64,000 nt of DNA from an uncultured Candidatus Saccharibacteria bacterium (GCA_964445905.1 CAYUNN010000003.1:69312-133311), one strand, 5' to 3'; numbered from the stretch's first letter, positions 1-13,556 are shown. Made by a program: numbers and translations. Notes: generated from the sequence alone by a model not told the origin.

Positions 1-1004
1 GGCGTTTTTATTTTAAGGTTTTCTATTAAAGGTTTTATCTGTTCTTCTATGTCTGGTTCTTTGACCCAATCTTTTTTCTCACAACCATTGCAATGTCCAT
101 AAATAATTCCTCTTTGTCTTTCCCAAGTTATTAGTCCTTCGCATTTTGCGCACCTTAGTAGTCTTTTAAATAAATAAAAATGTTTTGTATAGCTAGGAGT
201 TGATTTACTTTTTAGTATTTGTTGAACAGAGTTAAATAAATCTTCATTTATTAAAGGCTCTTGTTTACCTTTGTATATTTGGTTATTCCACTTTATCTTT
301 CCAAAATAAAAAGGGTCAGCCAATAATTCAGCCATTCTGCTCCTGCATAATTTATTTCCTTTTCTTGTTCTCAGCCCTTCTTTATACATTTTCTGAACCA
401 GTTTCTTTAAAGAGTATTCTCCGGAAGCATATAGGTTAAACATCTTTTTAATCAAAGAAGCTTTTTCTTTGTCTATTATGTGAATTTTATGGCCTTTTTC
501 TCCTACTGTTTTATAGCCTAGTGGTGGTTGGGTTGGGAGCCAGCCTTGAGCAATTTTCTCTTTTTGGCCCTTTTTAACTTCTTCTGAAAGATTATCAATA
601 TAGTATTGGGCAACTGAAACCTTGATATTCCAGATAAACTTTTCATTAGATTTAGAATCTTTATTTAGAATACAGTTTTCTTTAACAAAATGAACTTCTC
701 TTTCGGAATTTTCATTTATCCAATCATTTATACAAACAGCATCTTTTAGATTTCTGGTTAGCCTATCTATTTTTTCACAAATAATGATTTTAATATTATT
801 TTTCTTAGAATAGGCAACCATTTCGTTAAAAGCATTCCTTTTATAATATCCTTTAGCACTTTCAGAAATTGAAAATTTCTTAGCAATTCTAAAATCTTTC
901 CTATCAGCATAATCTTTTAGAAGTTTTTCTTGAGAGTCTAAAGAATAGCCAGTTTCTTCTTGCTCTCTGCTACTAACTCTACAAAATGATATACAAGGTT
1001 TCAT
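1..1004 (-). CDS. Large serine recombinase (resolvase/invertase family), 3'-truncated by window edge
   Basis: Reverse-strand translation from ATG at 1004: MKPCISFCRVSSREQEETGYSLDSQ...IKIIICEKIDRLTRNLKDAV... The catalytic Ser lies in the RVSSxxQ motif and the conserved DRLxR box is present. Downstream Cys pairs (CAKCEG...CNGCEKK) resemble the zinc-ribbon of large serine recombinases. The ORF runs off position 1. Confidence 0.8.
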   Translation of the reverse strand, partial: MKPCISFCRVSSREQEETGYSLDSQEKLLKDYADRKDFRIAKKFSISESAKGYYKRNAFNEMVAYSKKNNIKIIICEKIDRLTRNLKDAVCINDWINENSEREVHFVKENCILNKDSKSNEKFIWNIKVSVAQYYIDNLSEEVKKGQKEKIAQGWLPTQPPLGYKTVGEKGHKIHIIDKEKASLIKKMFNLYASGEYSLKKLVQKMYKEGLRTRKGNKLCRSRMAELLADPFYFGKIKWNNQIYKGKQEPLINEDLFNSVQQILKSKSTPSYTKHFYLFKRLLRCAKCEGLITWERQRGIIYGHCNGCEKKDWVKEPDIEEQIKPLIENLKIKT

Positions 1005-1010
1005 AGTATT

Positions 1011-1125
1011 TAAAGAGGCGCCCAGTAGCCCAATTGCTTTCCACGAAGGTCAGCTTTCGGTGGACGCCTCTCCAAAGAGCCGAAAGCAAATAAAAACTTC
1101 GTGGATTTAATAAAACTATGGGCTA
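1011..1125. promoter_or_regulatory. Inverted-repeat-rich segment immediately upstream of the recombinase start (candidate att/res site or structured leader)
   Basis: Four inverted-repeat pairs are visible: gaggcg(1014-1019)/cgcctc(1064-1069); gtagccca(~1023-1030)/tgggctac(~1118-1125); tccacgaag(~1040)/cttcgtgga(~1098); gctttcgg(~1053)/ccgaaagc(~1079). Confidence 0.3.
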
Positions 1126-1569
1126 CATCTTTATTATATTATTATTTTTTATAAATGTCGACACTTCTTTTGGCAAAAAACTTAAAGTGTTTATTTCTTC
1201 TAATTCATTAAGTTTTTCTTTAAGATTTTCAATGTTTTGAATTAAAGACTTAACTTCTTCTGGGTTGAGTTTATATTGTTCAATTACTATGGTAGAAATA
1301 ATTATTTGAAGTAGTAAACTATCTTTTATTAAGGAATTTATAGTTAGCTGTAAAAATCTTATAGCTTCTTTTTGCTTTAGATATACTTCCTCGATATTAT
1401 TTTTGTTAATTTTAGAAAGTATTTTTAAAGTATTTATAACATCTAAAATTTCTAGCCCTTTTTTATCTGGATTATTAAGAGATTTTATAATAAGTTCTAA
1501 CTTCTCTTCAGAATTTAGATTATCATATAGCATCTTAATTTTATTTTCTTTTTGACAGAACATTTTCAA
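1123..1569 (-). CDS. Hypothetical protein (148 aa), mobile-element cargo
   Basis: Intact ORF co-oriented with and adjacent to the recombinase. No recognisable motifs. Predicted coiled-coil/helical. Confidence 0.45.
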   Translation of the reverse strand: MKMFCQKENKIKMLYDNLNSEEKLELIIKSLNNPDKKGLEILDVINTLKILSKINKNNIEEVYLKQKEAIRFLQLTINSLIKDSLLLQIIISTIVIEQYKLNPEEVKSLIQNIENLKEKLNELEEINTLSFLPKEVSTFIKNNNIIKM

Positions 1570-1903
1570 GGTTTTTGATTCTTTCCTCTAGTTCAGAATC
1601 TAAAGCTTTTAAGCTTATGTTTAATAAATATCCGACACAGTTAGCTTTTTTAACAGATATTTCATCTACTCTTACCTCTCTAACCAACTTATTTATTAAA
1701 TCTATTACATCTCTATTATTTTTAACCATAATCGTGTCTTTTATCAGAGGATATTCTTTATGAGCATTTTTTCCTCCTTGAGAAAGAGCTTTCTTTCTTT
1801 TTTCTTTTACGTCTGGATTTTGAGAGTGCATAAAGCAGTACCTGTCGCCTGTTAAGGTTTTTGCATTACATCTTTTGCCATTTTTAGCATACTCACATCT
1901 CAT
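1541..1903 (-). CDS. Hypothetical Zn-finger-like protein (120 aa)
   Basis: N-terminal C-x5-C-x10-C-x2-H pattern (RCEYAKNGKRCNAKTLTGDRYCFMH). Overlaps its neighbour by 29 nt in operon-like fashion. Confidence 0.45.
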   Translation of the reverse strand: MRCEYAKNGKRCNAKTLTGDRYCFMHSQNPDVKEKRKKALSQGGKNAHKEYPLIKDTIMVKNNRDVIDLINKLVREVRVDEISVKKANCVGYLLNISLKALDSELEERIKNLENVLSKRK

Positions 1904-1933
1904 ATTTTATAAGCCGACTTATAGGGGTGGTAA

Positions 1934-2488
1934 TTATTTCCATTCTATATCTGATTCTTTACCAGCAAATTCTCTAAAATCATTTTGTCCGTGAATTACC
2001 CACCATTTCTTATTTTCGTCTCTCCACATTGACTTGTTCCAAAAATAAGGTTTTTTTGAAGAATCCTCCTTTTTATTTTTAATCCTTAAATTTGTTTCCT
2101 TACTATGGACAAGACTATCAGTCGCAGTGTGGTTAGACTGTTGGTCTTTCTTGATTGGACTATCAGCCCATTCGCTTTTATCCAATAGCAAGTACCTATT
2201 ATTAAGTTTTTTACCGACCCTTATTTTTTTAATAATATTGAATTTTTCAAGTATTTTTATGGCTCTTCCTACTTGTCTGGAAGATATTTTTAACTCTTCT
2301 GCAATTTTTCTTTGAGATGGCCAACAGAATTGTTCCTTGTTTGAATGTCTGCATAAAGATAAATAAACTCCGGTAGAATAAATGCCGCATTTTTTTGCAT
2401 AACCATTCAAATATAGGTCGTCAACAAAGAATTTAGTTTTTCCCCTTAAGTCTCTTATCTCAAATTTTTCACTGTCTTTGTTTTTCAT
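1934..2488 (-). CDS. HTH DNA-binding protein, replication-initiator/regulator-like (184 aa)
   Basis: Helix-turn-helix segment ...KIAEELKISSRQVGRAIKILEKFNII..., similar in pattern to phage/plasmid replication or regulatory proteins. Confidence 0.5.
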   Translation of the reverse strand: MKNKDSEKFEIRDLRGKTKFFVDDLYLNGYAKKCGIYSTGVYLSLCRHSNKEQFCWPSQRKIAEELKISSRQVGRAIKILEKFNIIKKIRVGKKLNNRYLLLDKSEWADSPIKKDQQSNHTATDSLVHSKETNLRIKNKKEDSSKKPYFWNKSMWRDENKKWWVIHGQNDFREFAGKESDIEWK

Positions 2489-2649
2489 ATTTACCTTTAT
2501 TTATTGCGATTCTTCTATCTATTTTTAATAACAAGTTAAAATAATCTGAGAGATTTTTCTCCAGTTGTTTTATTTCTTCATCAGTAGCTGCTTCCTTTAA
2601 CTCTTCTTCCATAGCCCTTTTCAGTTTTTTCTGGGTTTCAGTTAACATA

Positions 2650-2907
2650 TTAAAAATTAGAATAAATAAAATTCTTTAGATTTTTCTGGGCATTAAATAA
2701 ACTTAATACTGGCAGTTTGATTTTATCTTTAAAGTAATCTTCTGATACTTTGTCTATGTTTTTTTCTTGTTTAAATTTAAAGCCAACCTTCTTAGGGTTT
2801 AATTTATCTAGTCCGGTTAATTCATATCCTAGCACTACTAACGTGCTAGCAAGTCCCAAATCAAATGTCATAAATTCATTTTTTTTCATAAGAGAATTTA
2901 TAATCAT
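2650..2907 (-). CDS. Hypothetical small protein (85 aa)
   Basis: ORF in element orientation. No motifs. Confidence 0.3.
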   Translation of the reverse strand: MIINSLMKKNEFMTFDLGLASTLVVLGYELTGLDKLNPKKVGFKFKQEKNIDKVSEDYFKDKIKLPVLSLFNAQKNLKNFIYSNF

Positions 2908-2925
2908 TAAAATACAAATAAAAAA

Positions 2926-2950
2926 CTACACTTTAAGTGTAGTCTTTTTA
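2926..2950. terminator. Hairpin (actacac-tttaa-gtgtagt) with flanking T/A runs; possible bidirectional terminator
   Basis: Perfect 7-bp stem at 2926-2944. T-run follows on the + strand and, after reverse complement, on the minus strand downstream of the 2986..3579 gene. Confidence 0.35.
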
Positions 2951-2985
2951 TTGGTGAGTCAACTGAGAATTTTGTGAATTACTTT

Positions 2986-3579
2986 TTATTTAACTCGGGT
3001 TATTGTTTTTTTACTCCATATAAATATTTTTTTACCAAATCCATCCATTGTTCTTTTGTTAACTGCCTCCATCGCATCATAAACTACTCTAAGCTCTTTT
3101 TTTCCATTTTTCTTAGGTTCTTCCCCTGTCATCTTTTCATATATTATAGACCAATCTACAGGTTCTTCTATCTGGAATTCAAACATTGCCCTGCAAAGGA
3201 AGTGTTCATTTTTAAAAGCTGGTAGCTGACAAGCCTTATTTTTTAATTTAAGTTGTGCCTTATTGTCTAAAAATTCTATATTCTTATTGCTGATTATTAT
3301 GTCTTTTTCTAGTAATTCAGATATATCAATATTTTTTAAAAGATGTATCTTAAAAATAGGTATTGCTCCTTTGTGTATATGTATTATTTCAGAGGTTATT
3401 CCCTCGAATTTAATAAGTCCTAAGTCATCTAGTTCTTGAAGCATATCCGCAATCTCTTTATAGTTTACTTCTAAACTTTCTGGGAAGCTGTCTGCAGTAA
3501 TTTCTATAGGCGGTTCTTTCACTGCCTCCTTTTTTATAATATTATAAATACTTTTTAATTTTACTTTTTTGTTGCTCAT
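2986..3579 (-). CDS. Hypothetical protein (197 aa), first gene of the minus-strand element operon
   Basis: Intact ORF. Possible winged-helix-like C-terminal half. No confident family. Confidence 0.45.
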   Translation of the reverse strand: MSNKKVKLKSIYNIIKKEAVKEPPIEITADSFPESLEVNYKEIADMLQELDDLGLIKFEGITSEIIHIHKGAIPIFKIHLLKNIDISELLEKDIIISNKNIEFLDNKAQLKLKNKACQLPAFKNEHFLCRAMFEFQIEEPVDWSIIYEKMTGEEPKKNGKKELRVVYDAMEAVNKRTMDGFGKKIFIWSKKTITRVK

Positions 3580-3629
3580 TATAATTATAATTTTTAGTCT
3601 TTATTTTAAAATAACAAACTTGCCACATT

Positions 3630-3658
3630 TTGACAAGTAAGTTTTAAAATTGTAGTAT
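3630..3658 (+). promoter_or_regulatory. Sigma70-like promoter TTGACA-N17-TAGTAT upstream of the HTH/hsdM operon
   Basis: ttgaca at 3630-3635, a 17-nt spacer, then tagtat at 3653-3658. The CDS ATG at 3667 gives a very short leader. Confidence 0.35.
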
Positions 3659-3666
3659 GACTTAAT

Positions 3667-3846
3667 ATGAATTGTAAGTTTTTAACTGTTAAAGAGGTTG
3701 CAAAAAAGCTACGAGTTTCAGAACGTAGTGTGTTTCGCTATATTCATAATAGTAAGTTAAAAGCTAGCAAAGTTGGTTATTGGAGAATTGAAGAGAAAGA
3801 CTTAAAAAAGTTTATTAAAGATAATTTAAATATAAGACAAAGTTAA
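3667..3846 (+). CDS. Excisionase-family helix-turn-helix DNA-binding protein (59 aa; below the ORF-track length cutoff)
   Basis: Translation MNCKFLTVKEVAKKLRVSERSVFRYIHNSKLKASKVGYWRIEEKDLKKFIKDNLNIRQS matches the 'LTxxEvAxxLxvSxxTvyRxi...G.wRi' pattern of excisionase/MerR-like HTH domains. It ends 1 nt before the hsdM start. Confidence 0.6.
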   Translation: MNCKFLTVKEVAKKLRVSERSVFRYIHNSKLKASKVGYWRIEEKDLKKFIKDNLNIRQS

Positions 3847-3847
3847 A

Positions 3848-5287
3848 ATGACCCCAAACGAATCATTATCAAAAGCTGATATAAAAAAAGCCTGTGATAT
3901 TCTTAGGCGAGACGATGGCGTAGGTGCCGGTAACTATGTTGAACAATTATCTTGGCTGCTTTTCTTGCGTGTTTTTGAAAATGTAGAACTTCAGCTTAAA
4001 GAAATAAAAGAGGCAGAGGGCGATAAACATCAAGATATTATTGATAAGGAATATCAATGGTCTTCTTGGGCCAGAAAAGATTGGAAAGATAAAGATGAGT
4101 TAGTTCATTTTGTTTCTAACAAGCTCTTTCCTTATTTAAGAAGTCTTAAGGGAACAAATGAAAAAGAGAAAATAGGAGAAATTTTTAGAGAATTAGACGG
4201 AAACAAAATTCGCTCCCCCTTCACATTGCTAGATGTAATTGAGATTCTGGATAAAGTTGATATGGTTCACTATCAAGACACGCACCTTTTGTCGCAGGTT
4301 TATGAGGAAATATTGCAGGAAATGGGCGCTGAAGGTGGTTGGGCCGGCGAGTTCTATACGCCTCGTCCGATTATCCGTTTAATGGTTAATATTATAGAGC
4401 CAAAATTAGGACAAAGTCTTCTCGACCCATTTGTCGGCTCAGCTGGTTTTTTAGTAGAAAGTTTTCATTATATTCAAGAAAATCTTAATAAAAAATCAAA
4501 AACTGGCCTAAGAGAATGGAAAATTCTACAAAATAAAACTTTTTATGGTCAAGAAAAAAAGCCACTTCCTTATTTGATTGGAACAATGAATATGATTCTT
4601 CATCAGATTTTAGTTCCTAATCTTATAAGAGCAAACACCTTAATGGAAGATGTTCATAATGTTTCGGAAAATAAAAAAGTAGATGTAATTTTGACAAATC
4701 CGCCGTTCGGAGGAAAAGAACATAAAAGCGTACAGAATAATTTCCCAATTCCGGTAGCTGCTACAGAAGGGCTTGCCTTGCAGTATGTAATGAGGCATTT
4801 AAAAAATGGTGGACGTTGCGGCATTGTATTACCAGAAGGACAGATTTTATTTGGTGGAGGAGCATTTCAGAAAATAAGAGAAGAGCTTTTAACAAAATTT
4901 AATGTTCATACAATTATATCATTGCCTCAAGGAGTTTTTGCTTCAATGGGGGCAGGGGTTAAAACAAATTTAGTTTTCTTTGAGAAAACAGGGCCCACAA
5001 AAGAAATTTGGTATGGCGAGATAAGCGGTAAATTTACCAAAAAGATTGTTGTTATAGATTCTAATTTAGAAGATGTTTATAAGAAATGGCAAAAGAGAGA
5101 GATTTCAGAAAATAGCTGGATAGTTCCTATTAAAGAGATTAAAGAACGTAATTTTGATATTTCTCCTAAGAATCCAAATAAATTAGCAGAAGAGGAGCTA
5201 CCAGAACCAAAAGAATTAGTAAAAAGAATAGAAGAATCCCAGAAAGAAGCAAAGCAGATTTTAGATAATATAAAAAAGATTTTGTAA
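3848..5287 (+). CDS. hsdM: Type I restriction-modification system, N6-adenine DNA methyltransferase subunit M
   Basis: Carries the N6-Mtase motif ILTNPPFGG, an AdoMet-binding region and the HsdM N-terminal domain. Translationally coupled to hsdS. Confidence 0.93.
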   Translation: MTPNESLSKADIKKACDILRRDDGVGAGNYVEQLSWLLFLRVFENVELQLKEIKEAEGDKHQDIIDKEYQWSSWARKDWKDKDELVHFVSNKLFPYLRSLKGTNEKEKIGEIFRELDGNKIRSPFTLLDVIEILDKVDMVHYQDTHLLSQVYEEILQEMGAEGGWAGEFYTPRPIIRLMVNIIEPKLGQSLLDPFVGSAGFLVESFHYIQENLNKKSKTGLREWKILQNKTFYGQEKKPLPYLIGTMNMILHQILVPNLIRANTLMEDVHNVSENKKVDVILTNPPFGGKEHKSVQNNFPIPVAATEGLALQYVMRHLKNGGRCGIVLPEGQILFGGGAFQKIREELLTKFNVHTIISLPQGVFASMGAGVKTNLVFFEKTGPTKEIWYGEISGKFTKKIVVIDSNLEDVYKKWQKREISENSWIVPIKEIKERNFDISPKNPNKLAEEELPEPKELVKRIEESQKEAKQILDNIKKIL

Positions 5288-5289
5288 CC

Positions 5290-7128
5290 ATGAAAGAATG
5301 GAAAAATTATAAATTAAATGAACTCGTGGATTATAGAAATGGACTTTGGGTTGGTAAAAATCCTCCTTTCGTAACAGCAAAGGTTATAAGGGTAACGGAG
5401 TTTAACAACGATGGAACACATAACCTTGAAACCGCAAGAGAATTAAAAGTTGAGAGCAAGAAATTAAAAGAACGGGTTATTAAGCCGAATCAGATATTAT
5501 TAGAAAGGTCTGGTGGAGGAGAAAAAAAACCGGTAGGGAGAGTAATTCTCTTCAAGGATAATATTAAAGATAGTACTTATTCATTTAGTAATTTCACTAC
5601 TTTGTTGATTCCAAATGAATCAGTTGTTAATCCAAGATTTCTTTTCTATTATCTTCATTTCTTTTATATATCTGGACAAACTAATCATTATCAGAAAGCG
5701 ATGATTGGTATTAGGAATCTGGAATTTAAAAGGTATTTAGAACAAGATATTCCTATACCGCTCGAAAGCAGTCAGCCAGACCTTGAAGAGCAAAAAAGAA
5801 TAGCTGATAAAATTGATAAATTATTTGTAGAAATTGATAGAGGGATTATAGATACAAAGGTTTTTCTTTTAGATTCTCGCAAAATATTTCAAAGTAAGCT
5901 AAAAAAGATTTTTGATGCTGAGCTTTCTAAAAATTGGAGAATAAAAAAACTCGAAGAATTAGCTGCTAATACTGCCTATCCAATAGGAGATGGCGACCAT
6001 GGTCAAATTAAGCCAAGTTCTTATAGAAACGACGGTATTCCATATGTAAGAGCCGCAGATATAGGTTGGGGGGAGTTCACGCCAAATGGAATGGTTTACA
6101 TTTCTGAAGAAACTCATAAAAATAATTTAAAGAGCGAACTAAACCCTGGCGATATTTTAATTGTAAAAACAGGAGCTACTATTGGTAAATGTTGTATTGT
6201 GCCTAATGATATTAAAAAGGCCAACACAACTGCATCCGTTGGTAAAATAACTGTAAATAAAGATAAAGTTCTCCCCAGGTGGGTTTTGTTAAGATTCTTA
6301 TCCCCATCCTTTTTGAAGTTCATTTGGTCAATTAGTCATAAAGCAGCTCAGCCGAGTTTTAACAATAGAGATATAAAATTATTTGAAATTCCTCTACCAT
6401 TTAAGAATAACAGACCAGATTTGGACGAGCAAAAGAAAATCATTATAAGATTGGATAAAATTCAAGAACAAGCTAAGAAACTTGAAGAAAAATATCAGGA
6501 ACAGTTAAATAATTTCAGCAAGCTGAAGCAATCCATATTGCAGCAGGCTTTTGAGGGCAAGTTGGTGACAGCAAAAGAGCAAGCACCAGAGAAAATAAGC
6601 ATTTTTCCTATTCAGCAAGCTGTTGGAGCAATTCTTCAAAGATTTGAAAGAGGAGAGATGGTTGTAGCTAAAATCTTATATTTGGCCCAGACCATAAATA
6701 AAGTTTCTTTTTCTATACCATTCACGCCACAAAATTTTGGACCATATGATAAAGCAGTAAAACGTGCTGTAACCGCAGGATTGAGCAGAAATAATAATTT
6801 TTTTTCCAAGAAAAAATATAGTAAGGGTTTTGTTTATGGGTTGTCTCAAGGCTCTGAAAAATTGTTTAATTATAGTAATGCAAAAACGTTGAGAGAAATG
6901 AATAAATTTTTAGATGAAATGATGCCTTATTTTAAAAGAGTTAAAAGTGCTGACATTGAAAGGCTTGCAAGCGCTTGTGAAATAATAAAAAACAATAAAA
7001 CCATAAACAATGAAGAAGTTTATAAAGAACTTTCAAAGTGGAAGCCAGAAAAATTTACAGCCCAAGAAGTTGACAGAAGTTTAAATTTTATTAAATCTAA
7101 GGGATGGGATAAAATCTTAATGAAATAA
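5290..7128 (+). CDS. hsdS: Type I RM specificity subunit S with an atypical ~190-aa C-terminal extension (Panacea/SocA-like)
   Basis: Two target-recognition domains are separated by conserved coiled-coil repeats (LEEQKRIADKIDKLFVEIDRG; LDEQKKIIIRLDKIQEQAKKLEE). The protein is 612 aa versus a typical ~400-450 aa. Its tail carries ...VVAKILYLAQTINKVSFSIPFTPQNFGPYDKAV..., resembling the KLqKLLYfAq...GPv signature of DUF4065. Confidence 0.88.
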   Translation: MKEWKNYKLNELVDYRNGLWVGKNPPFVTAKVIRVTEFNNDGTHNLETARELKVESKKLKERVIKPNQILLERSGGGEKKPVGRVILFKDNIKDSTYSFSNFTTLLIPNESVVNPRFLFYYLHFFYISGQTNHYQKAMIGIRNLEFKRYLEQDIPIPLESSQPDLEEQKRIADKIDKLFVEIDRGIIDTKVFLLDSRKIFQSKLKKIFDAELSKNWRIKKLEELAANTAYPIGDGDHGQIKPSSYRNDGIPYVRAADIGWGEFTPNGMVYISEETHKNNLKSELNPGDILIVKTGATIGKCCIVPNDIKKANTTASVGKITVNKDKVLPRWVLLRFLSPSFLKFIWSISHKAAQPSFNNRDIKLFEIPLPFKNNRPDLDEQKKIIIRLDKIQEQAKKLEEKYQEQLNNFSKLKQSILQQAFEGKLVTAKEQAPEKISIFPIQQAVGAILQRFERGEMVVAKILYLAQTINKVSFSIPFTPQNFGPYDKAVKRAVTAGLSRNNNFFSKKKYSKGFVYGLSQGSEKLFNYSNAKTLREMNKFLDEMMPYFKRVKSADIERLASACEIIKNNKTINNEEVYKELSKWKPEKFTAQEVDRSLNFIKSKGWDKILMK

Positions 7129-7129
7129 T

Positions 7130-9583
7130 ATGGCATTATCTGAAGCAGATATAAAAGCAAAATATATTGACCCTAAAATTCACGAGAGTGGATGGGCAGA
7201 GGAACTTTTAACTCGCGAATATCCAATTACGCAAGATAGGTTTTTTGTTGAAGGAGAAGAGTATAAGAAAATAAATAGCAAGAAGTTTGCTGACTATGTT
7301 TTAAAATATGATGATATAAATATTGCCTTAATCGAGGCGAAAGCCGAAGATGAAAGCCCGGGAAAACATTTAAGTCAGGCTCAAGATTATGGAAAAAGGT
7401 TAGATGTCCCTTTTGTTTATATTTCTAATGGCAAAAAAACAATTTTGTATGACAGGAGAAATTTAAAAACCCAAGATGTTGACACATATTTAACTCCAGA
7501 AGAAATGTACCAAAGTTATCTTGAGTGGAAGGGGCTCAATAAGGCAAAGGTAGATGCTTTAAATTATCCACCTTATATTTCACCAACACAAAAGCCAAGA
7601 TTTTATCAAGAAGCTGCTGTTAAGGCTGTTATAGAGAATATTGTTAAGGGCAATAAAAAGACACTATTAACTATGGCGACAGGGACCGGTAAGACTTATG
7701 TTTCTTTTCAAACAGTATGGAAATTAGTTAAATCCAAACACTTTCATAGAGTTCTATTTTTGACAGATAGGATAATTTTAAGAGATGATGCTTATGAAAG
7801 AGACTTTGAGCCATTTGGAGAGGCAAGAGAAAAAATAAAAGGAGGTAAATTTAATAAGAATCGTAATATTTATTTCTCTACCTATCAAACATTATTTGCT
7901 GAAGATTTATATAAGAAAATTCCTAATGAATTTTTTGATTTAGTTATTATTGATGAATGTCATCGTTCTCGTTATGGAGATTGGGGTATAATTTTAGACC
8001 ATTTTAATACTGCTTATAATTTTGGCATGACAGCTACCCCTAAACGTCAAGACAACATTGATGTTTATGAATATTTTGGCGAACCGGTCTATGAATATAG
8101 TATGGGCCAAGCCATAGAAGATGGTTTTCTTGTCCCGTATAAGATTTATAAAATAAAAACAAACCTTTATAAGAAAGGACTTCACACCAGTGATGCAGAA
8201 GAAGTTATTTATGATGATGAAATAGACCCCGATGAGTTGAAGGATTTTTATGAACCATCTGAATATGAAAGAGCTATAAGCATTCCAGACCAAATTGAAA
8301 CTTTATCCAAAAAGGTAGTTGAGATTTTAGATAAAACAAATCCATATGGAAAAACCATTATATTCTGTGTAGATATGGCTCACGCCCAAAGCGTTAAAGA
8401 TGAGCTTAATAGGGCAAAGGGTAACGAAGAATATGCTACCAGAGTAGTTGCAGAAGATAAGGATAATTTAAGACCCTTTAGAGATAAAGAAATGACAATG
8501 CCTGTAATTGCTACTACTGTTGATTTGCTTTCTACTGGGGTAGATATACCAAACCTTGAGAATATTATTTTTATGCGTCCTGTAAGCTCTCAGGTATTGT
8601 TTAAACAGATTATTGGACGTGGTTCTAGATTATGCGAAGGAAAGGGATTTTTTAGAATAATTGACTTTACTAACGCTACTAGACTAATTGACGAATGGGA
8701 TGTACCGAAACCACCGCCTCCTCCACCGGAGCCGCCCGAAGAACCTAAGGCTCCCTTCGATAAACTTCTTTTTGGAGTGTTGGTTGATGCTAAAACAGAA
8801 AAACCAATTCCAAAGGCAAATCTTATAGCTAAAATTAGCAGATGGTTTAAGATAGGAACAACTGATAAAAATGGGATATTTAATCTTTTCGGATTACCCT
8901 CCAACGATACTATTGGCTTCTCTGCAGAGAAAGATGCTTATAAAAAATTCAATAAGAAAGTTAAGCCTCAAGAATCAGAAAGTGATGCTCCTTATGTTTT
9001 TAGTTTAAAGTCAGAAAAAGCTAAAGGCAAAAAAATAAAAATTAAGGGAATTGAGGTAACTATTGAAGAAGAAATAGAGGTTGAGTTTGAGGGCAAAAAG
9101 CTATCTTATGCAGAATACAGAAAATATTCTAAAGAGAATATTAAGAAGAAGATTCACTCAAGTGATGAATTAAGAGAAATTTGGCTGACTCCGGAGAAGA
9201 AAAAGAAGTTTCTTAAAGATTTAGAGAGCAGAAACATTAACATAGAACTTATTAAATCCATAGACAATTTTGGAGATAGTGATAGTTTTGATATTATTGC
9301 TCACCTTGCTTTTAATTCCCCTCTTTTAACCAGAGAAGATAGAGTTAAACAGTTTCTGCGTAATAATAATCAAAACATAACTCAACACGGCCAAGCCATT
9401 CAGGAAGCTATTTATAATATTTTAGATATGTATAAATATACGGGGGAGGAGAATTTATCTTCTCAAATATTTATGCTTCCGAATATGAATGCTCAAAAGA
9501 AAGAGGTCCAAAGTAAATATCCTAATGGATTAGCAGGGTTTATGAATTTCTTAAAACAAAAAATATATAGCGAAGCCAAATAA
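7130..9583 (+). CDS. hsdR: Type I RM restriction subunit R (helicase-nuclease)
   Basis: Has an N-terminal PD-(D/E)xK region (IALIEAKAED), Walker A TMATGTGKT and DEAH-like IIDECHRS. A Pro-rich linker PKPPPPPPEPPEEP is followed by an EcoEI-R C-terminal-like domain. Confidence 0.9.
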   Translation: MALSEADIKAKYIDPKIHESGWAEELLTREYPITQDRFFVEGEEYKKINSKKFADYVLKYDDINIALIEAKAEDESPGKHLSQAQDYGKRLDVPFVYISNGKKTILYDRRNLKTQDVDTYLTPEEMYQSYLEWKGLNKAKVDALNYPPYISPTQKPRFYQEAAVKAVIENIVKGNKKTLLTMATGTGKTYVSFQTVWKLVKSKHFHRVLFLTDRIILRDDAYERDFEPFGEAREKIKGGKFNKNRNIYFSTYQTLFAEDLYKKIPNEFFDLVIIDECHRSRYGDWGIILDHFNTAYNFGMTATPKRQDNIDVYEYFGEPVYEYSMGQAIEDGFLVPYKIYKIKTNLYKKGLHTSDAEEVIYDDEIDPDELKDFYEPSEYERAISIPDQIETLSKKVVEILDKTNPYGKTIIFCVDMAHAQSVKDELNRAKGNEEYATRVVAEDKDNLRPFRDKEMTMPVIATTVDLLSTGVDIPNLENIIFMRPVSSQVLFKQIIGRGSRLCEGKGFFRIIDFTNATRLIDEWDVPKPPPPPPEPPEEPKAPFDKLLFGVLVDAKTEKPIPKANLIAKISRWFKIGTTDKNGIFNLFGLPSNDTIGFSAEKDAYKKFNKKVKPQESESDAPYVFSLKSEKAKGKKIKIKGIEVTIEEEIEVEFEGKKLSYAEYRKYSKENIKKKIHSSDELREIWLTPEKKKKFLKDLESRNINIELIKSIDNFGDSDSFDIIAHLAFNSPLLTREDRVKQFLRNNNQNITQHGQAIQEAIYNILDMYKYTGEENLSSQIFMLPNMNAQKKEVQSKYPNGLAGFMNFLKQKIYSEAK

Positions 9584-9604
9584 TTATTTTAAAAAAATAA
9601 AAAT

Positions 9605-10531
9605 ATGCCCATATTTCAAATAAAAAATAAGAAACTAGTAAAAATTAAAGAAAAAGTTGCTCCTTTAGAAAAAGATATTCAAAAAGTAACGGAAGAAAAT
9701 TTAGAAGAAATATTCGGATTAAAATATATTTCTTCTGAATTTCCTTTAAATAATTTAAGAATTGATACTCTTTGTTTTAATCCGGAAACAAATTCTTTTG
9801 TAATCATAGAATATAAAAAAGATAGGAGTTTTAGTGTCATAGACCAAGGCTTTGCTTATCTTGCCTTAATGCTTAATAATAAAGCAGATTTTCTTTTAGA
9901 ATATAATGAGAAAACAAAAAAGCAGCTAAATAGAGATAATGTAGATTGGTCTCAATCTAAGATAATTTTTATTTCTCCTTACTTTACTCCTCACCAGAAA
10001 GGCGCTATAAACTTTAAAAACCTACCTCTTGAGTTATGGGAAGTCAATTTTTTTGGCAGTGATTTGATTGAATATGAACATATTGAACCAATTGAAACCT
10101 CTGAAAACATAGAAAAGATTACTGGAGGAGATAAGTTGATAAAAAGAGTGGCTAAAGATATTAAGCCTTACGACTTAGATTCGCATCTTAAAAAAGCATC
10201 TGACAAAACAAGAGATTTATATAGCTCTTTGAAAGAAAAAATATTTGAGTTGGGTGATGTTAAAGAAATTCCAAAACAACTTTATGTTGCCTACCGTATA
10301 GGAGACAGTCGTATAAATTTCTGTTCAATACATTTCTACAAAGAGAAGCTTGAAATTTATATTTTAATAGCCGATAAGAATCTTGATGACCCAAGGAAAA
10401 TGTCAAAAAAGGTTCCAAAGTCATATGGTTGGGCCAAGAATCTAAAAGTGTTCAACATAACATCAGAGAAAGACTTACGCTATGCAATGAATCTTATCGA
10501 GCAATCCTACGAGTTCAATAAAAACCGATAA
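9605..10531 (+). CDS. PD-(D/E)xK nuclease-fold protein (NucS/DUF91-like N-terminus + uncharacterised C-terminal domain), RM-associated
   Basis: D-x(n)-E-x-K pattern in ...LRIDTLCFNPETNSFVIIEYKKDRS...VIDQGFAYLALM. Tightly packed after hsdR with a 21-nt gap. Confidence 0.45.
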   Translation: MPIFQIKNKKLVKIKEKVAPLEKDIQKVTEENLEEIFGLKYISSEFPLNNLRIDTLCFNPETNSFVIIEYKKDRSFSVIDQGFAYLALMLNNKADFLLEYNEKTKKQLNRDNVDWSQSKIIFISPYFTPHQKGAINFKNLPLELWEVNFFGSDLIEYEHIEPIETSENIEKITGGDKLIKRVAKDIKPYDLDSHLKKASDKTRDLYSSLKEKIFELGDVKEIPKQLYVAYRIGDSRINFCSIHFYKEKLEIYILIADKNLDDPRKMSKKVPKSYGWAKNLKVFNITSEKDLRYAMNLIEQSYEFNKNR

Positions 10532-10545
10532 TTTTAGCTTGAAAC

Positions 10546-11397
10546 ATGAAGAAAGAATTAAAAGAATCAATAGAGAAAAGCGGAAATAAGCTTCATTTAG
10601 AAACAGCTGCTATTCTTGAAAAAAATGAATGGAATGTTGATTTAAGTTCTTATTATTATGATGATACTCAAAGAAAACCAAGAGAAATTGATATAATAGC
10701 TGATAAAGATTTTTCGATTAAAAATGAAGGTAAAGAGGTTGGGAAATTCAAGCTATTTTTATTCATTGAATGTAAATACTTAAAAAGTGATATAGGATTT
10801 ATAATGCGTGAAAATAATAGAAAGCAAGCAGAGGAGGCCATGATTTTTAGTGAAATAAATAAAGATAAAAATCTATTTTCTTATTTGGAAGGAATGCACG
10901 ATTATGGTTCTAATAAATTTACACATCATTATTTGAAAGATGAGTTTGTTGGAAAACTTTATAATACTACATCTGAGGACGAAAATAAGATTTTTAATGC
11001 GCTTACTCAGCCCATAAAATCCTTAATCTTCTTTCAGGAAAGTCTTTATAAAATGGAGCCGGAAGTTGGGGTTAAAAAGGCAATTTATTATCCTCTGGTT
11101 GTTTATTCGGGCATTGATGGAATATATCCAATTGAAGAATATGATAACTTAAATGACTTAAAGACAAAGGAAGGGGTGATATTTGCCTTAAATTATTCTT
11201 ATAAAAGTCCTACTAAAACAAAAACAGTTTATGGTGCGCAAGTTCCGATACTAACAACTCAACCCTTTTATATTGATTTTGTAAAAAAAGACGCCCTAGG
11301 TAGATTTTTAAGTAACGTTATTGGACAGGAAGCAAAAAGGTTTCAAAGATATTTTTCTAGCGTGGAGGAACAAAAAGATTTAAATAAAAATATATAG
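10546..11397 (+). CDS. Restriction-endonuclease-like fold protein (hypothetical)
   Basis: Second PD-(D/E)xK-like motif ...EIDIIADKD...LFLFIECKYL... in the same orientation as the RM genes. Confidence 0.4.
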   Translation: MKKELKESIEKSGNKLHLETAAILEKNEWNVDLSSYYYDDTQRKPREIDIIADKDFSIKNEGKEVGKFKLFLFIECKYLKSDIGFIMRENNRKQAEEAMIFSEINKDKNLFSYLEGMHDYGSNKFTHHYLKDEFVGKLYNTTSEDENKIFNALTQPIKSLIFFQESLYKMEPEVGVKKAIYYPLVVYSGIDGIYPIEEYDNLNDLKTKEGVIFALNYSYKSPTKTKTVYGAQVPILTTQPFYIDFVKKDALGRFLSNVIGQEAKRFQRYFSSVEEQKDLNKNI

Positions 11398-11416
11398 CAT
11401 TTTAAAATCTTAAGAC

Positions 11417-11650
11417 ATGAAAGAAACAATTAAGATACGTCATAAAAGAAAAGGATATAAAAAATTTTTAGCAGAAGAAGAAAGAGGATATTATCCGAGC
11501 AAAGATAAAAATAAATACCCATTAGGGGTTGATAAAATAAGAATAATTGATAAAGGAAAAAATCTGTATATAGAAAAAGTGATAGACAAAAAAACAGGGA
11601 AGATTATTAGGAACATAGAAGAATTATTAACCAAGCATAAAAAATTATAA
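11417..11650 (+). CDS. Hypothetical small basic protein (77 aa)
   Basis: Lys/Arg-rich ORF in the operon-like array. No motifs. Confidence 0.3.
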   Translation: MKETIKIRHKRKGYKKFLAEEERGYYPSKDKNKYPLGVDKIRIIDKGKNLYIEKVIDKKTGKIIRNIEELLTKHKKL

Positions 11651-11653
11651 AAT

Positions 11654-11944
11654 ATGTCATTAGAAAAATTATCAGACCGAATTGCCAAAAATCAATTTTT
11701 ATTCTCAGCTTTGTTGATTTTAATACTAACAGTTTACTTAATAGTCAATGAAGCTGACATCAAATATATAAATTTAGGGTTAATAACTTTCCTTTATTTT
11801 TATGTTTTATTTTTAACTAACTCTTTTTTTATGAAGGTTATTTATAAAGAAAAGGCTCAAGACCATAGCAGGTGGAAAGAATATATATTATTTTTCTTGT
11901 TTACTATTATATGGTTATTTATTTTGTTTAAATTTTATGAGTAA
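11654..11944 (+). CDS. Small membrane protein (96 aa, ~3 TM)
   Basis: Hydrophobic helices LFSALLILILTVYLIV, GLITFLYFYVLFL and ILFFLFTIIWLFILF. Overlaps the next gene's start. Confidence 0.4.
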   Translation: MSLEKLSDRIAKNQFLFSALLILILTVYLIVNEADIKYINLGLITFLYFYVLFLTNSFFMKVIYKEKAQDHSRWKEYILFFLFTIIWLFILFKFYE

Positions 11945-12596
11945 ATTAAGATTCATTACGGAACAACTGATAGAAGCTAACAATCTACTTTTTAATTCCA
12001 TTAAAACTTTGTATAAAGAAGATGATAAAAATAGTGGGAAATTATATCACCCCATATCTGTGATGTTGTTATCTTTTTGTTTTATTGATTGCTTAAGAAG
12101 GCTTAATTATATTTTTGAAAATGGAAAAGACGGTAAGGAGAATTTTAATAACAAAATTAACTATGAGGACTTTTTGAACCGTTTTATTATAAACAACGAT
12201 AAATATAATCAGTATAATTACTCTTTTGATGCAAATAGTTTATATCAGATAAGAAATGACCTAGTCCACTCTTTTGGATTAAAGAGGATATATAATAATG
12301 ATATTTTTAATTTTGTAGGAGGTGATTTATTTGAGAGCAAAAAAAATGTAGAAGACCTTAATATTTTAGGAAAACTAAATAATCCTTTAGCTAGAAACAT
12401 ACATACTATAACATTTAAATCTTTTTTAGAAATAATAAAAGAGGGTATGATGAAGATGTTAAGAGAGTGGGAAAAGAAGACTCTTAAAGATAAAGATTCA
12501 GAATCTTTTAAGAAGAATATAAATGATTTACACTTAGATTTAAAAGATATTACATATTTTTATTTAGGTTCAAGGTTAAAAAATAAAGTCGAATAA
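11937..12596 (+). CDS. Hypothetical protein with candidate HEPN-like R-x4-H motif (abortive-infection-like)
   Basis: ...SLYQIRNDLVHSFGL... fits the HEPN Rx4-6H signature. It follows a tiny membrane protein inside a defense island. The family assignment is unverified. Confidence 0.35.
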   Translation: MSKLRFITEQLIEANNLLFNSIKTLYKEDDKNSGKLYHPISVMLLSFCFIDCLRRLNYIFENGKDGKENFNNKINYEDFLNRFIINNDKYNQYNYSFDANSLYQIRNDLVHSFGLKRIYNNDIFNFVGGDLFESKKNVEDLNILGKLNNPLARNIHTITFKSFLEIIKEGMMKMLREWEKKTLKDKDSESFKKNINDLHLDLKDITYFYLGSRLKNKVE

Positions 12597-12615
12597 AAAT
12601 TAAATTATTATTACT

Positions 12616-13149
12616 ATGAAAAAATATATCGTAATTATTGTAGCTTTGATTCTTGTTGGAGGATTTTCTATTGTTAGTGCATCTCAAGAAGGAAATCCTT
12701 TTCAGAAAATATGGACTGCAATAAATAATCTTCAAGAGCAAATCTATAGTATAGAGCTTACTCCCGGCCCAGAAGGACCGCAGGGACCAGAGGGTCCAGG
12801 GGGTCCAGAGGGTCCGCAGGGACCGGAAGGACCACAGGGAATACAAGGTCTGGAGGGACCTGCAGGTCCTACTATTTTTCCTGAACCAGCATTTGATAGT
12901 GGTTGGGTAGAAATACCACCATATAATTCTGTAACAGATATTCACCACGATGTAGGAGGAGATGTAAATGATTATTTCATTTATGCTACATATCTTAGGC
13001 ACAATGATACCCTTACATCACATAGAACCGCAGCCGATGCAATATGGTGGGAAGATGTAGAACCTAATAATATACAGTTAATAACTAATGGAGATGTAAC
13101 TAATGAATTTAAGGCAGCTAGAATAAGAATTTGGGTTATAGGAGAATAA
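12616..13149 (+). CDS. Secreted collagen-like triple-helix repeat protein with globular C-terminal domain
   Basis: N-terminal signal/TM ([18 protein letters not shown]). Eleven perfect G-x-y triplets ([35 protein letters not shown]) sit at nt ~12769-12875. A C-terminal domain of ~95 aa follows. Confidence 0.75.
12769..12875 (+). repeat. 9-bp-unit collagen-like (GPEGPQ) tandem repeat inside the CDS
   Basis: ggaccgcagggaccagagggtccagggggtccagagggtccgcagggaccggaaggaccacaggga. The copy number stays in frame. Confidence 0.7.
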
Positions 13150-13161
13150 TAATTAAAATAA

Positions 13162-13192
13162 AAAGCTCATTGTTTTTCTTTGAGCTTTTTGT
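13162..13192 (+). terminator. Rho-independent terminator after the collagen-like gene
   Basis: aaagctca ... tgagcttttt: an 8-bp stem plus a T-run. Confidence 0.45.
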
Positions 13193-13451
13193 TTATGCTA
13201 GTAATTTTTGGGCTAGATTAAGAGTTAATTCAATATTTTGAATATAATCTGCCCATTTAGATGTTCGAAAACTGTCCCATCTGGGGAGCCGATAATTTCA
13301 AAATAAAACACCTTTTAGAAACGGTGTTTAATTTTTTTAATTCTCCTTATTCAAAGAGCAAACAAAAATTGTTCAACAGCGCGTTTTTTCTTGTCGAGAT
13401 CAGGGCACTTTGGGAGTGTTCGAACATAAGGAATATAATTAAAATTAATTT

Positions 13452-13529
13452 AGTTCACAATTTATAAGATAATTATAAATAGTCAGTTTACAATATAGTT
13501 TACAATTATATTTATCTACTTGACAATTA
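13452..13529 (+). promoter_or_regulatory. Repeated AGTT(T/C)ACAAT motifs plus TTGACAAT promoter-like box upstream of the HTH-GHKL gene
   Basis: agttcacaat (13452-13461), agtttacaat (13485-13494), agtttacaat (13497-13506) and cttgacaatta (13519-13529) lie within a 360-bp intergenic region. Confidence 0.3.
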
Positions 13530-13556
13530 TTTTAATATAGAGTAACCTTAGATTAC

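What the first reader, a model, noticed from the sequence alone, without database searches (positions are those of the whole stretch)
1..3846. Mobile-element-like block: large serine recombinase + IR-rich putative att site + small Zn-finger/HTH cargo, abutting the Type I RM island
A minus-strand operon (2986..3579, 2650..2907, 1934..2488, 1541..1903, 1123..1569) ends in a large serine recombinase (1004..<1). The recombinase is separated from the last cargo gene by a ~115-bp segment containing at least four nested or crossing inverted-repeat pairs (1011-1125). This is a candidate attachment/crossover site, or a structured RNA. Divergently, an excisionase-family HTH mini-gene (3667..3846) sits 1 nt upstream of hsdM. 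The RM system could therefore be cargo of, or adjacent to, an integrative element. The HTH could act as an RDF/Xis or as an RM controller.
Basis: partly seen in the sequence, partly recalled or inferred. Interest (0 to 1): 0.6.

Follow-up and report, generated by a model that had tools for sequence, protein, structure and literature searches.

The report
Mobile defence island with recombinase leader RNA
The block is the left part of a 13.8-kb mobile island that a large serine recombinase inserted into the end of a tRNA-Asn gene of an uncultured (CPR) bacterium. The island carries the restriction system as cargo, and the repeat-rich 115-bp segment is not the insertion site but a conserved, apparently undescribed folded RNA leader in front of the recombinase gene.

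Summary
The mobile-element reading is supported directly. A contig from a near-identical population (99.94% identity over window 13285-21589) lacks everything left of 13285 and has an intact, intron-containing tRNA-Asn there. The island therefore runs from about 540 nt left of the window to 13289 (~13.8 kb). Its att sites share only GGAGC (tRNA nt 70-73 plus 1). The type I RM operon lies inside it. Two other left-hand sequences meet the same junction in other samples, so the site is polymorphic.

The 1008-1126 segment is not an att site. It is a structured 5' leader RNA, found upstream of and in sense with 28 related recombinase genes. In these, 87.5% of cells are paired against 65.8% when shuffled, and 35 of 38 pairs show compensatory changes. 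A near-consensus promoter places the transcript start on its first paired base. No Rfam family matches. Its long hairpin and its loop-to-tail helix appear mutually exclusive and are nearly iso-energetic, and the tail ends 4 nt before the ATG. I infer a translational switch that limits recombinase synthesis; this is not shown. The role of the HTH_17 gene (RDF or operon regulator) stays open.

The parts
1..1004 (-). 5' 334 codons of the large serine recombinase gene. The full protein is 531 aa (P0001); the last ~590 nt lie left of the window.
   Evidence: Pfam Resolvase, Recombinase and a weak Zn_ribbon_recom hit; PHROG integrase phrog_95, E 8.7e-64; full length. The integrated-form ORF rebuilt from L001 plus L092 reproduces P0001 exactly.
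1008..1126 (-). Structured leader RNA of the recombinase mRNA. P1 is 1119-1126/1025-1032, P2 is 1097-1105/1040-1048, P3 is 1080-1087/1053-1060. The apical-loop strand 1061-1076 pairs with the tail 1009-1024 (16 bp, 3 of them G-U). The ATG at 1004-1002 lies 4 nt after the tail.
   Evidence: Inverted repeats; folds; covariance models R1 and R2 hit only this site in the window; covariation; no Rfam match.
1133..1161 (-). Promoter-like site TCGACA-17 nt-TATAAT (11 of 12 matches). The predicted start is ~7 nt downstream, at about 1126, the first base of P1.
   Evidence: A -10 box 5-8 nt upstream of P1 is present in nearly all 24 instances inspected.
1123..1569 (-). 148-aa ORF, no family assigned.
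1541..1903 (-). 120-aa Cys-rich (Zn-finger-like) protein.
   Evidence: weak DUF5763 hit; homologues in L049 and L013 upstream of their recombinases.
1934..2488 (-). 184-aa HTH_36 protein, similar to phage replication-initiator/DnaD-like proteins.
   Evidence: Pfam E 3.1e-13; PHROG replication-initiation families.
2469..2648 (-).
2650..2907 (-). DUF5659 protein (85 aa), a recurrent backbone gene.
   Evidence: Pfam; homologues 1-3.5 kb upstream of the recombinase, same strand, in 14 related loci.
2920..2948 (.). 13-bp perfect hairpin with T-runs on both strands (bidirectional terminator-like).
2986..3579 (-). 197-aa ORF of unknown function.
   Evidence: homologues in L045 and L074.
3630..3658 (+). 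Promoter-like site TTGACA-17-TAGTAT in the divergent intergenic region, ahead of the HTH_17/RM operon.
3667..3846 (+). HTH_17 (excisionase-family, mad1-like) 59-aa protein, first gene of the cargo operon.
   Evidence: Pfam; PADLOC mad1, E 1e-10; divergent homologues in 22 related loci.
3848..9583 (+). Type I restriction-modification genes: hsdM 3848-5287, hsdS 5290-7128, hsdR 7130-9583. These are island cargo.
   Evidence: Pfam. They lie inside the island limits set by the empty site.
9605..13149 (+). Further cargo ORFs: PDC-S18/DUF5655 (9605-10531), 283 aa, 77 aa, 96 aa, 219 aa, and a 177-aa collagen-repeat protein.
13263..13289 (+). attR: element arm GTTCGAAAACTGTCCCATCTGG (13263-13284) plus the common core GGAGC (13285-13289). 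Host DNA follows from 13290.
   Evidence: Alignment to empty-site contig L092 starts at 13285, 99.94% identity; sequences.

Best explanation
Window 1-13289 is most of a ~13.8-kb genomic island of a Patescibacteria (CPR) bacterium. A 531-aa large serine recombinase integrated it into the extreme 3' end of a tRNA-Asn(GUU) gene that carries a group I intron. attB, attL and attR share only GGAGC (tRNA nt 70-73 plus one base). The tRNA is regenerated, and the crossover lies 16 codons before the recombinase stop codon.

The island has two divergent modules. The leftward module holds small backbone genes (DUF5659, an HTH_36 initiator-like protein, a Zn-finger protein and others), followed by a separate promoter-leader-recombinase unit. 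The rightward operon starts with a small HTH_17 gene and carries defence cargo (type I RM, PDC-S18 and others).

The IR-rich segment 1008-1126 is the transcribed 5' leader of the recombinase mRNA. It forms a three-helix hairpin (P1-P2-P3) whose apical loop is complementary to the 16 nt directly after P1, and these end 4 nt before the ATG. The inferred mechanism is as follows. The hairpin forms first during transcription and leaves the initiation region open. Refolding into the nearly iso-energetic loop-tail helix buries it. A strong promoter would then yield only a small, time-limited amount of recombinase.

Shown: the island limits, the empty site, RNA structure conservation, strand and promoter position. 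Inferred: mutual exclusivity of the two folds, the effect on translation, and any trigger.
For: Island:
- The recombinase domains are present.
- Homologues end inside a convergent tRNA in 42 of 80 related loci: 29 Asn, 9 Gln, 3 Asp, 1 Leu.
- The last 31 nt of public contig L001 equal the 3' end of tRNA-Asn.
- Empty-site contig L092 has dnaG-rpoD-tRNA-Asn, then sequence identical to window 13285-21589 at 99.94%.
- The group I intron scores 99.6 bits, and the spliced exons fold as tRNA-Asn.
- The rebuilt integrated ORF equals P0001.
- Two other left arms meet the same GGAGC junction in L093/L096 and in L095.
- The Logan contig equals the island plus 30 nt on each side.
- L079 is a 7.4-kb relative bounded by a 19-bp repeat of the tRNA-Asn end. 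It has an HTH_17-Mrr-DpnI-like cargo.

Leader:
- There are 28 hits, all in sense and just upstream of recombinase genes, in 1.43 Mb searched.
- 87.5% of cells are paired against 65.8% when shuffled (0 of 500 shuffles as high), 35 of 38 pairs show compensatory change, and slid controls reach at most 56.5%.
- The loop-tail helix was not part of the model, yet it is 91% (core) and 73.5% paired.
- In an alignment-free scan for a terminal stem (P1) adjoining a loop-tail helix, 29 loci score 50-79 (28 once the likely false-positive L067 is set aside), against a maximum of 41 in shuffled sequences.
- The sense strand folds better in 21 of 24 instances, with 104 G-U pairs.
- The promoter and -10 box sit in register with P1.
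- The two folds lie within a few kcal/mol in most instances; the window gives -37.0 against -38.7.
- In three variants (L013, L030, L040) the tail strand itself contains the GAGGG/GGGGG Shine-Dalgarno-like sequence.
Against: - The left junction of the source contig itself could not be read. It is reconstructed from L001, L092 and the protein tail.
- No attP (excised circle) junction was found, so current activity is not shown.
- The translational role is inferred. In several homologues a Shine-Dalgarno-like sequence lies downstream of the tail, or a small ORF separates leader and recombinase. Direct occlusion therefore cannot be the whole story.
- Whether the loop-tail helix coexists with the hairpin as a pseudoknot or replaces it rests on my steric argument and on nearest-neighbour energies only.
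- More than half of the homologous recombinase genes lack this leader.
Confidence: 0.75

Rival explanations
1. The 1008-1126 inverted repeats act as DNA: an attP, or a res-like or operator site bound by the recombinase, as the res site lies upstream of tnpR in Tn3-family elements.
For: It lies directly upstream of a serine recombinase gene and is rich in inverted repeats.
Against: Both junctions of the island map elsewhere. There is no second copy in the 64-kb window. Helices covary freely rather than keeping a binding sequence. Many G-U pairs would be A-C mismatches on the other strand, and the sense strand folds better in 21 of 24 instances. A promoter places the transcript start on the first paired base.
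Confidence: 0.04
2. The leader is a stable 5' structure that only protects the mRNA or sets a constant low translation rate. The loop-tail pairing is a permanent tertiary contact (pseudoknot), not a switch.
For: The structure begins at the predicted +1, as 5' stabiliser hairpins do. Both helix sets covary, which a single pseudoknotted fold would also explain.
Against: The tail starts 0-3 nt after P1, while its partner sits in the apical loop 20-30 bp away. In the window, 16 of the 19 loop nucleotides would have to be in one helix, which is sterically unlikely; this is my inference. The alternative folds are close in energy.
Confidence: 0.22
3. The leader RNA is a partner of the recombinase itself. 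It would act as a guide or directionality cofactor, by analogy with the bridge RNA encoded in the 5' region of IS110 recombinase genes.
For: It has its own promoter, a strict association with and orientation toward one recombinase family, and two alternative pairings.
Against: There is no complementarity between leader and cognate tRNA target beyond non-cognate pairs: mean longest match 7.2 against 6.9 nt. Homologues without the leader use the same tRNA-Asn target. Large serine recombinases read att sites through protein domains (established knowledge).
Confidence: 0.05
4. The HTH_17 protein is the recombination directionality factor (excisionase) of the island rather than a regulator of the RM operon.
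For: It belongs to the excisionase-family fold PF12728 and hits PHROG excisionase families. It is a backbone gene, divergent from the recombinase module in 22 of 80 relatives whatever the cargo. The closest RM homologue (L071, 67% identity) has no such gene by the HMM search.
Against: It is translationally adjacent to hsdM, 1 nt apart. It matches mad1, the small first gene of the MADS defence operon, which that paper treats as a widespread regulator with limited effect on defence (bioRxiv 10.1101/2023.03.30.534895). In 7 of 11 relatives the next gene is a methylase or nuclease.
Confidence: 0.3
5. The island is a fixed remnant that no longer moves. The polymorphism reflects old, independent acquisitions.
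For: No attP junction was found. Only assemblies, not reads, were examined.
Against: The recombinase is intact, and both att sites are intact with a regenerated tRNA. Four states of one site occur in populations whose flanks are 99.9% identical. The unitig breaks exactly 30 nt beyond both junctions in sample SRR2989655.
Confidence: 0.12

Closest known systems
Integrative elements and prophages of large serine integrases (phiC31, Bxb1, A118, phiRv1, SPbeta type)
   Same: The domain set matches: an N-terminal resolvase catalytic domain with conserved Ser, a recombinase domain and a Cys4 zinc-ribbon region. The att sites are short and share only a few bases (here GGAGC). The integrase gene lies next to one junction.
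   Different: The target is the 3' end of a tRNA gene, which is the usual habit of tyrosine integrases. The crossover lies inside the integrase's own last codons. The host is a CPR bacterium, and the element is a small phage-gene-poor defence island. Sequence similarity to solved serine recombinases is only weak (E 1e-5).
tRNA-targeting genomic islands of tyrosine integrases (P4-like and similar)
   Same: Integration occurs at the tRNA 3' end with regeneration of the tRNA. The integrase is adjacent to the tRNA. Variable defence cargo is carried, and several islands compete for one tRNA hotspot.
   Different: The enzyme family is different, and there is a 5-nt common core instead of a direct repeat of 15-50 nt.
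Fold-back and alternative-pairing control of transposase or toxin mRNAs (IS10/IS50 fold-back inhibition, hok-type mRNA refolding); own knowledge
   Same: A 5' region of the mRNA pairs with the translation initiation region of a gene whose product must stay scarce. There are two alternative folds.
   Different: No sequence or structural relation. Here the element is a discrete ~90-135-nt motif starting at +1. Its effect on translation is untested.
IS110 bridge RNA
   Same: A structured non-coding RNA encoded in the 5' region of a recombinase gene of a mobile element.
   Different: The recombinase family differs (DEDD, not serine). No guide loops complementary to target or donor were found. There is no Rfam match.
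Integration-dependent changes of gene 3' ends (mycobacteriophage integration-dependent immunity; SSV1-type int genes containing attP); own knowledge
   Same: attP lies within a coding sequence, so integration changes the C-terminus. Here the protein is 531 aa when integrated against a predicted 546 aa when excised.
   Different: Only the last 16-31 residues of the recombinase change. No functional consequence is known.

Membership tests
Large serine recombinase (integrase) | N-terminal resolvase-type catalytic domain with the conserved serine | tested here: met
   PF00239, E 1.5e-22. R9-V10-S11-S12 are nearly invariant in 30 homologues.
Large serine recombinase (integrase) | Recombinase domain (PF07508) after the catalytic domain | tested here: met
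   E 5.7e-16; precomputed for P0001.
Large serine recombinase (integrase) | Zinc-ribbon domain (PF13408) with four Cys | tested here: inconclusive
   E 0.074, below the cut-off, in the window fragment. The Cys4 pattern CAKC...CNGC is present, and many homologues carry PF13408.
Large serine recombinase (integrase) | Short att sites sharing only a small central core | tested here: met
   attB, attL and attR share GGAGC only.
Large serine recombinase (integrase) | attP half-sites place the outer recognition motif ~5 bp further from the centre than attB half-sites | tested here: inconclusive
   GTTC lies 22 nt from GGAGC in the three element arms and 17 nt in attB. That is only one arm and three elements, and the pattern is not seen in L079.
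Large serine recombinase (integrase) | Catalysis of attP x attB recombination with a 2-nt stagger | not testable with these tools
   Needs biochemistry.
tRNA-integrated genomic island | Empty site in a closely related genome | tested here: met
   L092 has intact tRNA-Asn, and its flank is 99.94% identical from window 13285.
tRNA-integrated genomic island | tRNA regenerated at the occupied site | tested here: met
   The attL sequence is identical to attB through G73. The P0001 tail matches the antisense of the 3' exon and intron. The 5' part of the tRNA on the source contig itself was not readable.
Any Rfam 15 RNA family | Score at or above the family gathering threshold | tested here: not met
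   No hit at the leader in the window or in 8 related loci. The best sub-threshold hit is 21 bits against 81.9.
IS110-type bridge/guide RNA | Loops complementary to target and donor DNA; DEDD recombinase | tested here: not met
   No cognate complementarity, and the enzyme is a serine recombinase.
Tn3-type res site | Three subsites of conserved 12-bp inverted repeats bound by a small resolvase with a C-terminal HTH | tested here: not met
   The repeats covary instead of being conserved. The enzyme is a large serine recombinase.
RM controller (C) protein | XRE-type HTH_3 protein with C-box operators upstream of its own gene | tested here: not met
   The protein is HTH_17, not HTH_3. The intergenic region has only a 9-bp AT-only inverted repeat.
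Excisionase-family HTH (PF12728) acting as RDF | HTH_17 fold | tested here: met
   E 9.1e-13.
Excisionase-family HTH (PF12728) acting as RDF | Stimulates attL x attR recombination | not testable with these tools
   Needs an assay.
MADS defence system | mad6-8 mandatory genes present | tested here: not met
   Only the mad1-like gene matches. The downstream proteins tested gave PDC-S18 or nothing. The model definition is in bioRxiv 10.1101/2023.03.30.534895.
Type I restriction-modification system | HsdM, HsdS and HsdR genes with their domains | tested here: met
   N6_Mtase and HsdM_N; Methylase_S; ResIII, HSDR_N and EcoEI_R_C.

The most novel reading that the evidence does not exclude
The leader is more than a translational brake. 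It would be an RNA partner of the large serine recombinase, for example one that binds the enzyme or the HTH_17 protein and gates directionality or timing of island movement. That would make this the first RNA-controlled large serine integrase system.
Probability: 0.06. Interest if true: 0.9.

Novelty: new variant of a known kind. Interest (0 to 1): 0.62.

Why it matters
Large serine integrases are widely used genome-engineering enzymes, and little is known about how their own expression is controlled. A conserved RNA element dedicated to one large clade of them gives a testable control point, and it could serve as a compact regulatory part.

The locus is also a clean natural example of mobile defence islands in CPR bacteria, whose mobile elements are poorly known. 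One tRNA-Asn site is seen in four states: empty and three different islands. The junctions are mapped to the base, so attP and attB can be synthesised directly. Targeting a tRNA 3' end with only a 5-nt shared core, inside the integrase's own last codons, is an unusual arrangement for this enzyme family.

Tried and rejected
- Reading the source contig left of the window failed. P0001 is not on record for the look-up of encoding contigs. Exact-pattern scans of metagenome contigs and viral contigs found nothing. The left junction was therefore rebuilt from L001, L092 and the protein tail.
- A second copy of the tRNA 3' fragment in the window was not found. This was later explained: the shared core is only 5 nt.
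- A second copy of the leader motif in the window was not found with either model.
- There is no Rfam identity for the leader.
- The guide-RNA idea was tested as complementarity of leader to cognate tRNA against non-cognate tRNAs, with no signal.
- The attP junction was not found in viral contigs.
- Direct repeats of tRNA pieces within 10 kb upstream in relatives were found only in L079 (19 bp) and L045 (14 bp). This is consistent with small cores elsewhere.
- My first stop-codon estimates were wrong for some loci, because tblastn ran through stops. They were recomputed.
- My early guess that the tRNA might be Thr or Tyr, made from the protein tail, was wrong. The tail reads into a group I intron.
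It became 83-91% only after P2 was put in the model, so that figure leans on the model.
- Literature searches found no description of this leader or of tRNA-targeting serine integrases in CPR. The library is incomplete.

Full report
**Observation**

The minus-strand ORFs, the truncated recombinase ORF starting at 1004, the HTH gene at 3667-3846 and hsdM one base later are all present.
- The ORF at 1-1004 has Resolvase and Recombinase domains and a weak zinc-ribbon hit, and it matches phage integrase family phrog_95.
- The segment between the 148-aa ORF and the recombinase holds five inverted-repeat pairs that nest and cross: 1025-1032/1119-1126, 1040-1048/1097-1105, 1053-1060/1080-1087, 1034-1041/1082-1089 and 1009-1024/1061-1076.
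- It folds far better than shuffles: -41.5 kcal/mol, z = -3.6.
A 59-aa ORF (2469-2648) was missed. The genes are also not one operon, because a 13-bp hairpin terminator lies at 2920-2948 and a near-consensus promoter lies at 1161-1133.

**Extending the recombinase**

A public Logan contig (SRR2989655_6165, loci L001/L002) carries the same genes and extends the recombinase to 524 codons. The full protein is P0001, 531 aa, on a 167,880-bp contig. Its last residues, LLRGQDSNLQ..., are the antisense reading of a tRNA T-arm and acceptor stem.

A scan of one genome per species gave 80 related loci, nearly all from Patescibacteria MAGs. In 42 of them the recombinase ORF ends 13-63 nt inside a convergent tRNA gene: 29 Asn, 9 Gln, 3 Asp, 1 Leu. 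The last 31 nt of L001 are identical to the 3' end of tRNA-Asn in L011. The family therefore targets tRNA 3' ends, and its att core sits in its own last codons, not upstream of the gene.

**Limits of the island**

The host gene to the right of the defence genes, a DEAD-box helicase (15529-16734), occurs with identical protein sequence on seven contigs.
- One of them, L092, has dnaG-rpoD-a 223-aa gene-tRNA-Asn, then sequence 99.94% identical to window 13285-21589. Nothing left of that point matches the window.
- The tRNA is interrupted by a 203-nt group I intron (Rfam 99.6 bits). The spliced exons fold as a canonical tRNA-Asn(GUU).
- Comparing the three sites gives attB ...TTCGAATCCTGCCCGC GGAGC CGATAATTTC, attR (window 13263-13289) GTTCGAAAACTGTCCCATCTGG GGAGC CGATAATTTC, and attL ...TTCGAATCCTGCCCGC GGAGC AGTTCTGCAAATTCGGGC.
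- The only shared block is GGAGC, tRNA positions 70-73 plus one base. This fits a serine recombinase with a small central overlap, and it regenerates the tRNA.
- Joining the recombinase ORF to the L092 tRNA/intron sequence reproduces the 531-aa P0001 exactly, including the odd tail QPGAYTLS*, which is the antisense of the 3' exon and intron end. The source contig therefore has the island in this tRNA.
- The island runs from about 540 nt left of the window to 13289, about 13.8 kb. It contains the recombinase module, the HTH_17 gene, the whole type I RM system, a PDC-S18 candidate defence gene and six further ORFs.

**Evidence of mobility**

Three further contigs from other samples of the same project match the window from 13285 onward at 99.9%. 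To the left they carry two other sequences that meet the same GGAGC...GTTCGGATTTCGTTCAGAATAC in L093 and L096, and ...GTTCTAACAAAGTCCGTCCCTC in L095. One site is thus seen empty and occupied by three different elements.

The Logan contig spans window -569 to 13314, which is the island plus exactly 30 nt at each end. That is where a k=31 unitig would break if alternative paths exist in that sample; this is my inference.

In the three element arms GTTC lies 22 nt from the core, and in attB it lies 17 nt from the core. This recalls the 5-bp offset between attP and attB half-sites described for serine integrases (own knowledge). It rests on few cases.

A relative, L079, is a 7.4-kb element bounded by a 19-bp repeat of the tRNA-Asn end. 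No attP junction was found, so present-day excision is not shown.

**The IR-rich segment**

The same architecture appears upstream of many homologous recombinase genes although the sequences differ.
- A first covariance model (P1 and P3 only) found 19 instances. A second (P1-P3) found 28, in 1.43 Mb and on both strands. Every hit is in sense with, and just upstream of, a recombinase gene, and the window has one hit, 1008-1126.
- On the 26 distinct sequences, 87.5% of cells pair against 65.8% after shuffling (0 of 500 shuffles as high). 35 of 38 pairs show changes on both sides. The covariation score is 0.505 against 0.176, and sliding the partners gives at most 56.5%.
- The alignment was fitted to P1-P3, so those figures lean on the model. 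The loop-tail helix was not modelled and is still 91% paired in its core, with compensatory changes in its variable part.
- An alignment-free scan for 'stem ending where a second stem begins' gave 50-79 for 29 loci, one of which (L067) is probably a simple hairpin rather than the motif, and at most 41 for shuffled sequences. Loci without the motif gave 27-48.
- The structure belongs to the sense strand. It holds 104 G-U pairs in 24 instances, and the sense strand folds better in 21 of 24.
- The best promoter match in the 3-kb region ends 7 nt before the first base of P1. A -10 box, often with an extended TG, sits 5-8 nt before P1 in nearly all instances.
- No Rfam family matches the motif in the window or in eight relatives. 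My searches found no paper describing it.

**How the leader may work**

The tail strand begins 0-3 nt after P1, while its partner lies in the apical loop at the far end of 20-30 bp of helix. In the window, 16 of the 19 loop bases would be in that helix. I therefore consider the hairpin and the full loop-tail helix mutually exclusive; this is an inference.
- Their predicted energies are close in most instances: -37.0 against -38.7 in the window, and -41.6 against -43.4 in L048.
- The tail ends 4 nt before the ATG in the window and 2-44 nt before it in most others. In three variants (L013, L030, L040) the tail contains the Shine-Dalgarno-like GAGGG/GGGGG and the loop the matching CCCTC.
- The most economical reading is a bistable leader. 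The hairpin forms first and leaves the start region open, and refolding closes it. A strong promoter is thereby converted into a small pulse of recombinase.
- Against a simple occlusion model, some homologues have a Shine-Dalgarno-like sequence after the tail, or a small ORF between leader and recombinase.
- A guide-RNA role finds no support. Leaders match their own tRNA target no better than others, and leaderless homologues use the same target.

**The HTH_17 gene and the cargo**

An HMM built from the window protein finds small HTH_17 genes in 24 of 80 loci. 22 of them are divergent from the recombinase, mostly 1.3-4.4 kb upstream.
- The next gene was examined in 11 loci. In 7 it is a methyltransferase, restriction enzyme or helicase-nuclease: N6_N4 and C5 methylases, HsdR, a RadC-Dam fusion, a type IIG enzyme, an MTES_1575 nuclease-helicase and Mrr.
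- Type I RM genes lie upstream of five related recombinases, and those of L071 are 67% identical to the window's.
- The gene is therefore part of the element backbone and heads a variable defence operon.
- It matches mad1 of the MADS operon, which that paper groups with widespread regulators and finds largely dispensable for defence.
- It is not a classical C protein: it has the wrong HTH family and no C-box-like repeat.
- Whether it regulates the operon, acts as the excision factor, or both, cannot be decided here.

**Comparison and verdict**

The element works like other large-serine-integrase islands and meets the family's testable sequence features. It differs in target (a tRNA 3' end), in having the crossover within the integrase ORF (531 aa integrated, 546 aa predicted when excised), in host (CPR) and in its dedicated leader RNA. 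Only 6 relatives, 3 of them close, were found among 2.9 million viral contigs, against 264 in genomes. These are islands rather than recognised prophages.

I rate it a new variant of a known kind. The island itself is an ordinary concept, well resolved here. The leader is an apparently undescribed RNA motif with strong comparative support and an untested function.

Noticed in passing
L092 7486-7760 (corresponds to the source contig just left of window position 1): The target tRNA-Asn(GUU) carries a 203-nt group I intron between anticodon-loop positions 35 and 36 (RF00028, 99.6 bits). ARAGORN misses the gene unless the exons are joined. L076 11742-12048 has another group I intron at the 3' end of its recombinase.
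   Followed up: yes
L093 1-188, L096 1-307, L095 1-810: Two other, unrelated sequences abut the same GGAGC junction in near-identical populations. L095 encodes the C-terminus of a helicase-like protein. They look like the far ends of two other islands using the same tRNA-Asn site.
   Followed up: partly
L020 136-254, L063 1863-1988, L076 6303-6419: LOOT RNA (Rfam RF03000, 71-92 bits) occurs in three related elements, on the strand opposite the recombinase. There is none in the window.
   Followed up: no
window 9605-10531: The DUF5655 protein directly after hsdR matches the PADLOC candidate defence family PDC-S18 (E 1e-104). A homologue follows the HTH_17 gene in L057.
   Followed up: partly
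window -569..13314 (Logan contig SRR2989655_6165, 13,884 nt): The contig equals the island plus exactly 30 nt beyond each junction. This is the pattern expected for unitig breaks at k-1 where alternative paths exist in the same sample.
   Followed up: partly
recombinase 3' end (left of the window) and window 13180-13284: Because the crossover is 16 codons before the stop, the excised form would encode a 546-aa protein ending ...LLPRWDSFRTSKWADYIQNIELTLNLAQKLLA, instead of the 531-aa integrated form.
   Followed up: partly
L007, L008, L009, L012, L019, L026, L032, L035, L044, L057, L070; and L016, L017, L023, L024, L027, L034, L037 (100 nt upstream of the recombinase start): Homologues without the leader carry other conserved upstream sequences. 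One class has repeats of ACTTAACATTACTTGACATT. Another has GTTGATATTACTTGAAG...TTTATGTGTTGTGTTAGCAAC. These may be alternative control regions.
   Followed up: no
window 13557-15275: A HATPase_c + DUF4325 (STAS-like) gene and a 217-aa ORF lie just outside the island. They are present next to the empty site too, so they are host genes, not cargo.
   Followed up: yes
L092 2588-5530: The DnaG primase gene near the empty site is 980 aa and carries an intein-type Hint domain.
   Followed up: no
L006 and L015, upstream of the recombinase: A variant leader in which a second helix also crosses P1 (GCAAAGGGT...ACCTTTTGC), giving a double-pseudoknot topology. It was not captured by the covariance models.
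   Followed up: no
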